The notes under the pieces are model-generated. The model was not told the DNA's origin. It searched no databases and worked only from the letters and a program-made list of their open reading frames with translations. A program made the translations under genes and the position numbers. 64,000 bases of DNA. Source: Omnitrophica bacterium GWA2_41_15. Lineage in GTDB: Bacteria > Omnitrophota > Gorgyraeia > Gygaellales > Profunditerraquicolaceae. The DNA is taken from contig CAKKQB010000013.1 of assembly GCA_919901915.1 (NCBI GenBank), forward strand, positions 64,192 through 128,191, in the 5' to 3' direction. Shown one piece after another: positions 8,256 to 9,980 of this stretch (positions are counted from its first letter, which is position 1; the number at the start of each line of letters is the position of its first letter).

Positions 8256-9980
8256 TTAAGGTAGTTGGAAGCTAATCTTAAAATTATCAACTTTTAAGCC
8301 ATCACCGCTGCCTTTATCAACAGAATCAATCTTAGCGCCCACAACTAACCTTGAATTATTCATTTTACCTACAAACTCGGCCAATATAACATTAGGAGAC
8401 GCATCGCCATTCTTAACAAAACCGATAATTGTCCCTGTCTTGGATTGGCAATTTAACAAAAGCCCCTTTAAGAAAATATCTTGAGAGGCAGCCTTACTAA
8501 ATTCCTTTAACAGGGAACCAACAGGAAAATCTGAATCCCTGACTTTTTCCGCGAAATTGCTTAAAGCATCCGTATTTTGCTTTATTTTTTTAACTTCGGA
8601 TAGAACATTTTGATACGCCAGAGTATTATCTAAACGCTTCTGTTGCGTATCAAGGCCTGCTTTCGCGAAAATATAAGGCAAAAGCATTAATAAAAAAACC
8701 AGAAATGCCGCCCAACGTAAAGAAATCTTCTGCAACTTCTCTATTTTTCCCGTACAAAATTCTTGCGGCAGGAGATTAATCTCTCTGTCTAAACCTACAC
8801 CTAAACCAAAAGCAGCATAACTACGCGATAAAAAATCAGAATTGACAGAGGGTAAAGATTCTATTTCCTCCTTCAAAAAAATCACAGAAACAGGTAAAGA
8901 CAATTCAACGCTTAGAATTTTATCTAAATCAAAAATCCTTCCTGCCTCACCAGCAATCAAAATATTCTTTAGCGCGCCTTCCTTAGGCCCTTTAAACTGC
9001 GCGTCATAATAAGCAAGCGAACGCTTTATCTCCTGCGCCAATCTTTCCAAACCCGGCCTAAGCATTGCCAAAATCTGGCTAACCGCTATCTTATTATTAT
9101 AAATCGAACTATTGGCAAATTTAGAAGTTTTGAACAAAAATTTATCTATCTCATCAGGAGTTAATTGCTCTTTTCCCTTAACGCTGATTAATACCTGCGT
9201 TAACGACTCTCTTAATTTAGCGATTGACACGGGAAGCTGACGATAAAAATTAAGCTTATTCTCATGAAGAATAGCAAAATAACCGCTATCTTCCGTCATA
9301 TGTAAAATGCCTACAGCCTCATCGCGCGCCTCTTTAGCATATTCCTCTATAAGTTTCGCGTAACCAAAAATAGAAACTCCCACCCCTGAACATCTAAGCC
9401 CTATTTGCGTCAATAGGACAACCTGCTTTTTAATCTCGTCTTCTTTTGCCGCTACGCAGATGATATCAAATGTTTTCGCGCCATCTTCTTTAGTTTCCTT
9501 CTTGATGAGGTGATACTTAATTATCGCCTCGGATAAATCAAAAGGCACATCGTCCTTAATCTGCCACTTAATTGCTTCTAACAACTCTTTATCCGGAACA
9601 GCCGGCAATTGAAGGCGCTTAATAATTAAAAAACTTAAGGATGGACTCAAAACACAATTTTGGTGCTGGATACCATTTTCTTTAATAAAACTACGTATGG
9701 AATCTTTAATCTTCTCTTCTCTCTTATCCCCCGAGAGCTCAAATATATTCAAAGCAGTAATTTTTGCCTTGCGGCTTCGGCCAGAAGAGGCCGAACCACT
9801 GCCTTCTGGCTGGTCTTTTCCCGTAGCAATGGGATCCCGCCTCCCGATACAAGAAATACAGGATCCCGACAAAGTCGGGAAAAGACGGGGAAGTTGAATA
9901 TTAATCAGCTTTAAATTTGAGCTGATATCAACGACAAGGACTTCATCCGCATTTTTAACAAATAGATTAGATATGTTCAT
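8256..9980 (-). CDS. pilM: PilM-PilN fusion protein (actin-like ATPase fold fused to PilN TM/periplasmic part)
   Basis: 574 aa. PilM-like N-terminal about 400 aa, then the PilN signature INLLPQEF plus a TM segment LRWAAFLVFLLMLLPYIF. A low-complexity insert QPEGSGSASSGRSRK is encoded by repeat 9768-9810. Confidence 0.8.
   Translation of the reverse strand: MNISNLFVKNADEVLVVDISSNLKLINIQLPRLFPTLSGSCISCIGRRDPIATGKDQPEGSGSASSGRSRKAKITALNIFELSGDKREEKIKDSIRSFIKENGIQHQNCVLSPSLSFLIIKRLQLPAVPDKELLEAIKWQIKDDVPFDLSEAIIKYHLIKKETKEDGAKTFDIICVAAKEDEIKKQVVLLTQIGLRCSGVGVSIFGYAKLIEEYAKEARDEAVGILHMTEDSGYFAILHENKLNFYRQLPVSIAKLRESLTQVLISVKGKEQLTPDEIDKFLFKTSKFANSSIYNNKIAVSQILAMLRPGLERLAQEIKRSLAYYDAQFKGPKEGALKNILIAGEAGRIFDLDKILSVELSLPVSVIFLKEEIESLPSVNSDFLSRSYAAFGLGVGLDREINLLPQEFCTGKIEKLQKISLRWAAFLVFLLMLLPYIFAKAGLDTQQKRLDNTLAYQNVLSEVKKIKQNTDALSNFAEKVRDSDFPVGSLLKEFSKAASQDIFLKGLLLNCQSKTGTIIGFVKNGDASPNVILAEFVGKMNNSRLVVGAKIDSVDKGSGDGLKVDNFKISFQLP
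9768..9810. repeat. E-type palindromic element inside the pilM-pilN fusion (in frame)
   Basis: cttgcggcttcggccagaagaggccgaaccactgccttctggc. About 85 percent identical to the reverse complement of 570-615. Confidence 0.8.

What the first reader, a model, noticed from the sequence alone, without database searches (positions are those of the whole stretch)
9768..9810. A ~45-bp palindromic element inserted in frame in three unrelated genes, in both orientations
The 43-nt sequence cttgcggcttcggccagaagaggccgaaccactgccttctggc (pilM-pilN fusion, 9768-9810) is about 85 percent identical to the reverse complement of 570-615 in the first ORF, where half-sites are duplicated at 570-593 and 612-635. The same modules (AACCACTGCCYTCTGGC + TTGCGGCTYSGGC) recur at 35597-35658 in gltB.

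The encoded peptides differ with orientation: QPEGSGSASSGRS and RKPEGSGLA versus AEPLSSDL repeated twice. All are stop-free, hydrophilic and located in linkers. This looks like a selfish palindromic element that is tolerated only when it preserves the host reading frame.
Basis: partly seen in the sequence, partly recalled or inferred. Interest (0 to 1): 0.66.

Follow-up and report, generated by a model that had tools for sequence, protein, structure and literature searches.

The report
Hairpin repeat inserted in-frame within genes
A 42-base hairpin-forming DNA repeat scattered through Omnitrophota genomes sits between genes and, unusually often, inside genes, where it adds exactly 14 harmless amino acids to surface loops; it is a new example of a rare but already known phenomenon.

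Summary
The consensus is TTGTGGCTTTGGC-TATCGGAA-GCCAAACCAC-TGCCCTCTGGC. The copies lie in pilM-pilN, in an unnamed 651-aa ORF (opposite orientation), in gltB, and in the intergenic spacer at 1988-2029.

The same element occurs in 26 species-level MAGs, nearly all Candidatus Omnitrophota. It folds into an 11-bp hairpin with a conserved bulged C, supported by compensatory changes, followed by a conserved non-palindromic tail.

Orthologues lack the segments. All 43 aligned PilM and 59 aligned ORF1 homologues, and one Omnitrophota GltB, are empty at these sites. Four other filled/empty pairs differ by exactly 42 nt. About half of the copy clusters lie inside long ORFs, and 27 of those 36 use one frame (KPEGSGLASxSQSH). 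Intergenic arrays also use periods of 43-45 nt.

The best reading is a REP/RPE-like non-autonomous hairpin element, filtered by selection to unit lengths divisible by three, a hydrophilic frame and surface loops. How it moves was not shown. I found no target-site duplication and no cognate transposase, only short similarity between empty sites and the element's tail.

It is a new variant of a known kind (Rickettsia palindromic elements, intragenic REPs). Interest is moderate.

The parts
9769..9810 (+). Full 42-nt unit (B module 9769-9781, loop, A module 9790-9810) inside the pilM-pilN gene, which is on the minus strand. It encodes QPEGSGSASSGRSR(K).
   Evidence: covariance-model hit 9760-9815, 63 bits, E 1e-15; absent from the 43 aligned PilM homologues.
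9811..9886 (.). A second, unrelated palindrome next to the unit, with 11-bp inverted termini GTCTTTTCCCG (9813-9823) and CGGGAAAAGAC (9876-9886). Together with the unit it forms the 114-nt (38-aa) in-frame insertion in PilM.
   Evidence: no other copy in the window or in the loci held; long hairpin. In the AlphaFold2 model residues 35-67 have pLDDT below 50, between strands 23-29 and 73-80.
8256..9980 (-). Host gene 1: pilM-pilN fusion, 574 aa.
   Evidence: (PF11104 PilM_2).
572..613 (-). Full 42-nt unit in ORF1. It lies in the opposite orientation, relative to its host gene, to the pilM-pilN and gltB copies, and encodes LRLRQGEAEPLSSD.
   Evidence: covariance-model hit 567-622 minus strand, 58 bits; 16 aa absent from the 59 aligned homologues.
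614..634 (-). Extra A module (partial unit) directly upstream of the full unit in ORF1. It encodes AEPLSSD.
1..1933 (-). Host gene 2: ORF1, 651 aa in the full contig, 3' end outside the window. No Pfam family; conserved in Omnitrophota next to an HD-domain gene.
35617..35658 (+). Full 42-nt unit in gltB with private compensatory stem changes (GCTCGGGC / GCCCGACC). It encodes PKGNGRASHSPSRK.
   Evidence: covariance-model hit 35608-35663, 61 bits.
35596..35616 (+). Extra A module (partial unit) in gltB. It encodes PEGSGLA.
34743..39386 (-). Host gene 3: gltB (glutamate synthase large chain, 1547 aa). The insertion lies in the variable segment between the FMN-binding region and the C-terminal GXGXG domain.
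   Evidence: (13 aa more than B. subtilis 7mfm at this point).
1988..2029 (+).
   Evidence: (family D14); covariance-model hit 1979-2034, 43.5 bits, E 4e-10; folds as a hairpin.
31156..31177 (.). Hairpin-only relative (AGCTTTGGCTATCGAAAGCCAAAGCT), a perfect palindrome without the tail. It is intergenic.
   Evidence: (22 bits, E 3e-4, both strands).

Best explanation
What it is:
- This is a small non-autonomous repeat of the REP/RPE type, found almost only in Candidatus Omnitrophota.
- One unit is 42 nt. It has an 11-bp hairpin with a conserved extrahelical C (GTGG-C-TTTGGCT / AGCCAAACCAC), a 6-8-nt loop and a conserved 12-15-nt non-palindromic tail (TGCCCTCTGGCTTG).

Shown:
- It is dispersed in many genomes.
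- It is present at sites that are empty in orthologues, often as an exact 42-nt difference.
- Its copy number changes locally in steps of 12, 30, 42 and 54 nt.
- Its hairpin is kept by compensatory changes.
- Within genes it is confined to lengths divisible by three and mostly to one frame.

Inferred:
- Copies are made by a structure-specific enzyme that recognises the folded hairpin on one strand. The most likely candidate is an IS200/IS605-type Y1 (RAYT-like) transposase acting in trans. I put this step at about 0.3.
- Insertion is favoured next to sequences that resemble the element's own tail.
- Arrays then grow and shrink by replication slippage between the TGGCTT motifs at both ends of the unit.
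- Selection removes every genic insertion except those that keep the frame, carry no stop, encode the hydrophilic Gly/Ser/Pro-rich peptide, and fall in surface loops or linkers. That filter produces the 'in-frame in unrelated genes' pattern.

The confidence of 0.72 applies to the class-level reading (a dispersed REP/RPE-like element filtered by selection), not to the enzymatic step.
For: Distribution:
- The exact 21-mer of module A is found at 70 genomic loci.
- 63 of them carry the full element, in 26 species-level assemblies, 19 of which are labelled Omnitrophota.
- The 6-7 loci without module B match my estimate of about 4 chance hits.

Structure:
- 93% of stem cells are paired, 5 of 11 pairs show changes on both sides (27 cells), and 0 of 500 shuffles reach this.
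- The bulged C is present in 84 of 87 copies.
- The DNA fold is -11.5 kcal/mol, z = -4.5.

Insertion status:
- Absent from the 43 aligned PilM homologues and the 59 aligned ORF1 homologues.
- The gltB site is empty in L074 and holds one unit in L059.
- Exact 14-aa (42-nt) differences: L028/L009 (flanks 90% identical), L037/L024, L024/L037 and L036/L015.
- A 96-nt difference separates L063 from L015.
- A 54-nt indel separates L036 from L063, whose flanks are 94-97% identical.

Recent within-genome spread:
- The pilM, ORF1 and intergenic copies of the window share the private TTCGGC/GCCGAA stem variant. The gltB copies do not.

Selection filter:
- 36 clusters lie inside ORFs and 27 of them are in one frame (binomial p = 2e-14 against 1/6).
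- 5 of the 6 frames of the consensus are open.
- The favoured peptide has GRAVY -1.26, against +0.2 to +1.3 for three of the other five frames.
- Genic spacings are all multiples of 3, whereas intergenic arrays have periods of 43, 44 and 45 nt.
- The orientation bias is 32:7 inside ORFs but only 11:6 between genes.
- The PilM insert is a disordered loop between two confident beta-strands.

Target similarity:
- The empty gltB site reads AAACCAGAGG; the element end reads AAGCCAGAGG.
- The empty ORF1 site reads TCTTCTGATTTA; the tail reads TCTTCTGACTTG.
- GCCAG and CAR microhomologies occur at two other junctions.

A Y1 transposase exists in the phylum:
- L069 carries an IS200-like ORF (tblastn 3e-8; Pfam Y1_Tnp 22.1 bits).

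Precedent:
- Intragenic REPs and RPEs are described in PMC3733652 and PMC10969869.
Against: - No transposase was found next to or flanked by this element. The one RAYT-like ORF seen (L069) is flanked by a different GTAG repeat. No protein family recurs beside the copies.
- There is no consistent target-site duplication.
- There is no GTAG tag outside the stem.
- The units are arranged head to tail, not as inverted REPIN-like pairs.
- The 42-nt sequence is about 90% conserved across species whose orthologous proteins are only 40-70% identical.
- Copies persist at the same site in different species: gltB in the window and L059, and one ferredoxin-like gene in L020, L033 and L060. This could mean a host function rather than pure parasitism.
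- The counts come from 8-kb pieces around exact matches in MAGs, not from whole genomes.
- Coding status was judged from ORF length only.
- Copies are not phylogenetically independent, so the p-values are optimistic.
Confidence: 0.72

Rival explanations
1. The hairpin is a host cis-acting element. It would be an RNA or single-strand DNA structure used for mRNA stability, pausing, or as a protein-binding or recombination site. It would be kept by selection for that role, and genic copies would be functional rather than merely tolerated.
For: - The stem is maintained by compensatory changes and the bulge is conserved.
- Stem mismatches are strand-asymmetric: 46 A.C against 12 G.T. This means wobble pairing is kept on the strand that is the sense strand of most host genes.
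- The sequence is highly conserved across diverged species, and copies persist at orthologous sites.
- The orientation bias relative to transcription is 32:7 inside ORFs.
Against: - No Rfam family matches.
- Intergenic copies show no significant orientation bias (11:6, p = 0.33).
- Copies sit in unrelated genes at arbitrary loops and are absent from most orthologues.
- Related genomes lack copies in 30 kb examined.
- The A.C excess is concentrated at the two outer pairs of the stem and at the loop-closing pair. At the outermost pair one change (CAC to CAT) is synonymous in the common frame.
Confidence: 0.13
2. The unit is primarily a protein module: a 14-residue flexible linker or tag, KPEGSGLASxSQSH, that benefits the host proteins and was spread by recombination. 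On this view the DNA hairpin is incidental.
For: - 75% of genic clusters use one frame.
- The peptide is hydrophilic and rich in Gly, Ser and Pro.
- Insertions sit in loops and linkers.
- Some sites are retained in several species.
Against: - About half of the clusters are non-coding or uncertain, including arrays whose periods are not divisible by three.
- Other frames and the opposite orientation are also used in real genes, ORF1 of the window among them.
- The tail and stem are conserved equally in non-coding copies.
- The residue encoded by the loop varies freely (D, F, Y, H, N).
- No Pfam family matches the peptide.
Confidence: 0.07
3. The similarity comes from local tandem duplication or slippage of native sequence, from convergence, or from assembly error, rather than from a dispersed element.
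For: - The native ORF1 and gltB sequences at the empty sites already resemble the element's tail.
- Units clearly expand and contract locally.
Against: - The full 42-nt unit, with its hairpin, occurs at 63 loci in 26 assemblies from independent projects.
- The pilM locus is identical on contigs read from independent ENA and Logan assemblies, and NCBI is also listed as a source of the identical protein.
- The covariance-model E-values are 1e-15 to 4e-10.
Confidence: 0.03

Closest known systems
Rickettsia palindromic elements (RPE; Ogata et al. 2000, as summarised in PMC10969869 and PMC3733652)
   Same: - Both are palindromic repeats found between genes and, unusually often, in frame inside unrelated housekeeping genes.
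- Both add a peptide segment judged compatible with the fold.
- Both are interpreted as selfish DNA filtered by selection.
   Different: - RPE-1 type elements are about 100-150 bp, occur in Rickettsia, and the short RPE-4/6 types carry a CGTC tag.
- This unit is 42 nt, has a GTGG-headed stem and a long non-palindromic tail, forms head-to-tail arrays, and lives in free-living or epibiotic Omnitrophota.
- There is no sequence similarity.
GTAG-type REP elements and their RAYT transposases, including intragenic REPs (Di Nocera et al. 2013, PMC3733652)
   Same: - Both are short stem-loops with occasional bulges, in many copies per genome, sometimes reiterated in tandem.
- Some REPs lie inside ORFs and encode 20-30 aa.
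- The highest intragenic count reported was in Opitutus terrae, a Verrucomicrobia species of the PVC group, where the tag is often GTGG.
- One host gene in the related loci is a UvrD/RecB-like helicase, the class of gene noted in that paper.
   Different: - There is no GTAG tag outside the stem.
- The unit is longer than the 20-40 bp typical of REPs because of the conserved tail.
- About half of the clusters are genic, whereas REPs are predominantly extragenic.
- No REPtron was found: the only RAYT-like gene seen is flanked by another repeat.
Bacterial MITEs that fuse in frame with ORFs (ERIC, Correia/NEMIS, QMITE1 and others; PMC10969869)
   Same: They are non-autonomous, form hairpins, and occasionally create in-frame fusions with host ORFs.
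   Different: MITEs are 70-300 bp with 15-30-bp terminal inverted repeats and target-site duplications. None of these features is present here.

Membership tests
REP (GTAG-tagged repetitive extragenic palindromes) | Short (20-40 bp) imperfect palindrome present in many copies per genome. | tested here: inconclusive
   The hairpin core is about 28 nt and dispersed: 4 sites in 64 kb here, and at least 16 loci in one MAG. However, the conserved unit is 42-45 nt because of a non-palindromic tail.
REP (GTAG-tagged repetitive extragenic palindromes) | Conserved GTAG tetranucleotide (variants GTRG, GTGG) at one end of the stem-loop. | tested here: not met
   No GTAG. A GTGG begins the stem on either strand, but it is base-paired within the stem and its outer pairs are the least conserved. 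A GTGG variant is reported for O. terrae, so this is a near miss.
REP (GTAG-tagged repetitive extragenic palindromes) | A cognate RAYT (Y1 transposase) gene flanked by the same repeats (a REPtron). | tested here: inconclusive
   Only about 0.5 Mb around copies could be searched. One Y1_Tnp-like ORF was found (L069), flanked by a different GTAG repeat. Whole genomes could not be scanned.
REP (GTAG-tagged repetitive extragenic palindromes) | Predominantly extragenic location. | tested here: not met
   36 of 76 clusters lie inside ORFs of at least 450 nt.
Rickettsia palindromic elements (RPE) | In-frame insertion into unrelated protein-coding genes, absent from orthologues. | tested here: met
Rickettsia palindromic elements (RPE) | Sequence family and size (about 100-150 bp, or CGTC-tagged short forms) in Rickettsiales. 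| tested here: not met
   The unit is 42 nt, has no CGTC tag, and the host phylum is Omnitrophota.
MITE | Terminal inverted repeats of 15-30 bp and a size of 70-300 bp. | tested here: not met
   The arms are 11 bp and internal, and the unit is 42 nt.
MITE | Target-site duplication of fixed length. | tested here: not met
   Six filled/empty junctions show no consistent duplication, only 3-10 nt of similarity to the element end.

The most novel reading that the evidence does not exclude
The element may not be moved by a REP/MITE-type transposase at all.

- It could be a 14-codon 'patch' copied into new sites by a homology-guided, strand-specific process, such as template switching or a single-strand DNA/RNA-templated repair event seeded by its tail.
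- This would explain why empty sites already resemble the tail, why there is no target-site duplication, and why wobble pairing is kept on one strand only.
- The same process would systematically write a flexible KPEGSG-type loop into proteins across a whole phylum.
Probability: 0.12. Interest if true: 0.75.

Novelty: new variant of a known kind. Interest (0 to 1): 0.45.

Why it matters
- It extends the 'selfish DNA inside protein-coding genes' phenomenon, best known from Rickettsia, to an uncultured phylum. I found no description of it there in the literature library.
- The case is unusually clean. The unit is exactly 14 codons, and the same family offers non-coding copies with periods not divisible by three as an internal control.
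- One of six frames dominates, and several filled/empty orthologue pairs exist. That makes it a good natural system for separating insertion bias from selection, and for asking how such elements create new protein loops.
- On the practical side, these units inflate and fragment gene calls. They also produce spurious 'hypothetical proteins' and contig ends in Omnitrophota MAGs: many copies in JASEHM01 lie at contig ends.

Tried and rejected
- **Rfam.** A scan of five element-rich loci gave no family at the element.
- **Viral contigs.** The scan gave four hits, all the same viral gene without module B, so they are chance matches.
- **Metagenome scan for gltB relatives.** I hoped for more filled and empty sites. 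It returned 80 loci, almost all distant (45-50% identity); several came from human-gut metagenomes. It was not informative.
- **Peptide search.** A search with five concatenated KPEGSGLASxSQSH units gave only 12 short proteins at E <= 10 among 4669 word-sharing candidates. A single 14-aa copy cannot reach significance in that database, so the breadth of host proteins could not be counted this way.
- **Cognate transposase, by tblastn.** I used IS200 TnpA and E. coli RAYT sequences recalled from memory, so this is a lead and not a test. There was one hit (L069), and it is flanked by a different repeat.
- **Cognate transposase, by neighbourhood.** Clustering all ORFs near copies shows only housekeeping families recurring.
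- **Target-site duplication.** None is consistent.
- **Pseudoknot between loop and tail.** It appears only in the pilM copy and is not conserved (reading).
- **Integron attC-like site.** The stem contains GCCAAAC/GTTTGGC, one mismatch from the attC core consensus as I recall it. There are no cassettes, the length is wrong, and there is no second inverted-repeat pair. I dropped this idea.
- **Resemblance to B. subtilis GltA.** Its native QPEGVRTFQSPQNH resembles the element peptide at the same position. I treated this as coincidence, beyond the conserved native (K/Q/R)PE motif.
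Full report
**1. The observation.**
The three sites are as described. The repeat finder pairs 571-617 with 9765-9811 (47 nt, 87% complementary).

Aligning the sites shows a modular unit. Module A is GCCGAACCACTGYCYTCTGRC. Module B is TTGCGGCTTCGGC. Between them is a short loop. The period is 42 nt in ORF1 and in gltB.

All host genes are on the minus strand:
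- pilM-pilN (8256-9980) reads QPEGSGSASSGRSR.
- gltB (34743-39386) reads QPKGNGRASHSPSRKPEGSGLAP, in the same frame of the element as pilM.
- ORF1 (ending at 1933, with its 3' end outside the window) carries the element in the other orientation and reads PAEPLSSDLRLRQGEAEPLSSD.

**2. A family, not a local oddity.**
The window comes from a 95-kb metagenome contig (ENA ERZ1292638 NODE_67). An exact scan for GCCRAACCACTGYCYTCTGRC in one genome per bacterial and archaeal species returned 70 loci.
- 63 carry the whole element with module B. They belong to 26 assemblies, of which 19 are labelled Omnitrophota or Omnitrophica.
- The other seven assemblies are labelled Planctomycetales (3), Planctomycetia (1), Kerfeldbacteria, Paceibacterota and Firestonebacteria. 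In the two of these loci that were checked, the host genes are 87-90% identical to Omnitrophota genes. I therefore suspect labelling or binning rather than real spread.
- The remaining 6-7 loci, in other phyla, lack module B. That agrees with my estimate of about 4 chance matches.

The consensus of 87 copies is TTGTGGCTTTGGC-TATCGGAA-GCCAAACCAC-TGCCCTCTGGC(TTG). Loop length varies, which gives periods of 42-45 nt. Partial units of 12, 30 and 54 nt also occur.

A covariance model built from these copies finds exactly four full units in the window, plus a hairpin-only relative at 31156-31177. It finds none in 30 kb from two related genomes. There is no Rfam match and no true copy in viral contigs.

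**3. Anatomy.**
The unit folds into an 11-bp stem with one bulged C (present in 84 of 87 copies) and a 6-8-nt loop. A conserved tail that does not pair follows it.

*Stem support:*
- 93.4% of stem cells are paired.
- 5 of 11 pairs have changes on both sides (27 cells).
- 0 of 500 shuffles reach this score.
- Versions of the structure slid by 1-3 columns drop to 19-51% paired.

*Examples in the window:*
- The pilM, ORF1 and intergenic copies share TTCGGC/GCCGAA where the consensus has TTTGGC/GCCAAA.
- One gltB copy has GCTCGGGC/GCCCGACC.
- The shared private variant in three of the four sites suggests recent spread within this genome. The gltB copies look older.

*Stability:* the fold is stable as DNA or RNA (-11.5 and -18 kcal/mol, z about -4).

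*Strand asymmetry:* stem mismatches are 46 A.C against 12 G.T. Wobble pairing is therefore preserved on the strand complementary to the one written above, which is the sense strand in most host genes. I treat this as a weak hint of a single-strand substrate. The excess is concentrated at the two outer pairs of the stem and at the loop-closing pair, and at the outermost pair one change (CAC to CAT) is synonymous in the common frame.

**4. Are these insertions?**
Yes.

*PilM.*
- All 43 aligned homologues (38-58% identity) lack a 38-aa block.
- The block is 114 nt. It consists of the 42-nt unit plus an adjacent 72-nt palindrome with 11-bp inverted termini.
- That palindrome has no other copy in the window or in the loci held.
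- An AlphaFold2 model built from 48 sequences gives a confident PilM fold. Residues 35-67 are the exception, with pLDDT below 50 and no secondary structure. They sit between strands 23-29 and 73-80.

*ORF1.* All 59 aligned homologues lack 16 aa.

*GltB.*
- The window protein has 13 aa more than B. subtilis GltA at a variable inter-domain segment.
- Among Omnitrophota, L074 is empty there, L059 has exactly one unit and the window has 1.5 units.

*Other filled/empty pairs in the fetched loci.*
- Exact 14-aa, 42-nt differences: L028 against L009 (flanks 90% identical), L037 against L024, L024 against L037 (a different site in the same gene, in another frame), and L036 against L015.
- L063 has 96 nt more than L015.
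- L036 and L063, whose flanks are 94-97% identical, differ by 54 nt.

**5. Genic and intergenic copies.**

*Counts:*
- Of 76 clusters, 36 lie well inside ORFs of at least 450 nt.
- The other 40 are non-coding or too close to a gene or contig end to call.
- 27 of the 36 genic clusters use one frame, KPEGSGLAS[DFYHN]SQSH (p = 2e-14 against equal use).

*Stops do not explain this:*
- The consensus is open in 5 of 6 frames.
- The other frames do occur in real genes. Examples are AKPLSSD/AEPLSSD in L038 and ORF1, and QARGQWFG in L037.

*Hydropathy offers an explanation:*
- The favoured peptide is the Gly/Ser/Pro-rich hydrophilic one (GRAVY -1.26).
- Three of the other five frames are hydrophobic, and several are rich in Trp, Phe, Cys and Leu.

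*Spacing and orientation:*
- Spacings inside ORFs are all multiples of three.
- Non-coding arrays have periods of 43, 44 or 45 nt.
- The orientation bias is 32:7 inside ORFs and 11:6 (not significant) between co-directional genes.

Together these results point to a selection filter on an element that is blind to coding.

**6. Mechanism.**

*Not shown:*
- I found no consistent target-site duplication.
- No protein family recurs beside copies.
- One IS200/RAYT-like ORF exists in an element-bearing MAG: L069 2027-2476, tblastn 3e-8, and Pfam Y1_Tnp 22.1 bits against a 23-bit cut-off. It is flanked by a different, classical GTAG repeat, GTAGCGGCGCGATTTATCGCGCGAAT. This shows only that such enzymes and REPs exist in the phylum.

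*What the junctions show:*
- Empty sites resemble the element's tail.
- In gltB the empty site reads AAACCAGAGG and the element end reads AAGCCAGAGG. The KPE motif there is native, since distant GltB proteins have (K/Q/R)PE at that point.
- In ORF1 the empty site reads TCTTCTGATTTA and the tail reads TCTTCTGACTTG.
- Two other junctions share GCCAG and CAR.

*My working model:*
- A structure-specific, strand-specific enzyme recognises the hairpin. A Y1 transposase acting in trans is the best guess, at about 0.3.
- Insertion is favoured at tail-like sequences.
- Arrays change length by slippage between the TGGCTT motifs at both ends of the unit.
- Selection then prunes the genic copies.

**7. 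Comparison with known systems.**
The behaviour matches Rickettsia palindromic elements and the intragenic REPs catalogued by Di Nocera et al. That paper found the most intragenic GTAG-type repeats in Opitutus terrae, a Verrucomicrobia species of the PVC group, often with a GTGG tag.

Membership fails for each family on defining features:
- There is no external GTAG or CGTC tag.
- The unit is longer than a REP and shorter than an RPE-1 or a MITE.
- There are no terminal inverted repeats or target-site duplication.
- The arrays are head to tail.
- Half of the clusters are genic.

I found no paper describing this in Omnitrophota. I therefore class it as a new variant of a known kind.

**8. Caveats.**
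- The counts come from 8-kb windows around exact 21-mer matches in MAGs. This biases the sample towards conserved copies.
- Coding status rests on ORF length alone.
- Copies are related to one another, so the p-values overstate independence.
- High conservation of the unit across diverged species, and retention at orthologous sites, leave room for a host function (rival 1).

**9. Verdict.**
- This is an RPE/REP-like element family that is new for Omnitrophota.
- Interest is moderate, at 0.45.

Noticed in passing
window 37914-38006 (inside gltB, minus strand): There is a second, unrelated in-frame insertion in the same gltB. It is 26 aa (DSVERIAD...LYALRSTLYANKSYPLSA), absent from the GltB of L074 and L059. 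It is made of the heptamer-array inverted repeat (AGCGTAG/AGCGGAT)n...(CTACGCT)n, which otherwise fills intergenic regions of this window.
   Followed up: partly
window 18913-19049, 20098-20140, 39382-39560, 44641-44754, 47639-47732, 53634-53709: Arrays of 7-nt repeats (AGCGTAT, AGCGTAG, AGCGGAT) sit in many intergenic regions. They are often paired with their reverse complement and so form large inverted repeats around gene boundaries (families D1-D10 and I1-I25).
   Followed up: no
window 9811-9886: A 72-76-nt palindrome with 11-bp inverted termini is translated in frame as part of the PilM insertion. It has no other copy in the window or in the loci held.
   Followed up: partly
window 6189-6219, 8045-8075, 29285-29315, 52012-52042, 56159-56189 (and 6120, 29336, 52115, 56192): Another palindromic repeat family, GTCATTCCGGCGAAAGCCGGAATCCAG. 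It lies partly within a 182-nt repeat (8020-8201 against 51987-52168, 93% identical).
   Followed up: no
window 14714-15013 and 15178-15477: A perfect 300-nt tandem duplication with 464-nt spacing gives two identical 134-aa N_methyl (pilin-like) genes.
   Followed up: no
window 31156-31177: A perfect 26-nt palindrome, AGCTTTGGCTATCGAAAGCCAAAGCT, is almost identical to the element's hairpin but has no tail. It lies between two co-directional genes.
   Followed up: partly
L069 1920-2600: An IS200/RAYT-like Y1 transposase ORF in an Omnitrophota MAG is inserted among pseudopilin genes. It is flanked by classical GTAG repeats (GTAGCGGCGCGATTTATCGCGCGAAT). The downstream repeats are read in frame into the next gene's ORF. 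A GTAGGGGCGGGTTCGAACCCGCCCCTAC palindrome at 832-860 also lies inside an ORF.
   Followed up: partly
P0002, P0107, P0129 (homologues of PilM and ORF1): Other Omnitrophota orthologues carry different repetitive inserts at other positions. Examples are SPEFTEGQSSELTEGRS in P0002, a 58-aa block in P0107, and EAEGSPRGVRLGEPKAGREAEGAPGGG in P0129. In-frame repeat insertions may be common in this phylum.
   Followed up: no
L063 1424-4849 (with L015, L036, L054): A UvrD/RecB-like helicase-nuclease carries this element at three separate sites (4-5 units). This echoes the published note that intragenic REPs often lie in repair genes.
   Followed up: no
JASEHM01 loci (L003, L009, L012, L045, L048, L050, L055, L061, L071): In this MAG the unit is nested inside a larger repeat (GATTGCTTCGTCCTGCACCATACGG-[unit]-TTGCAGGGCTCGCAATGACGG...). 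Many copies sit at contig ends, so the repeats appear to break the assembly.
   Followed up: no
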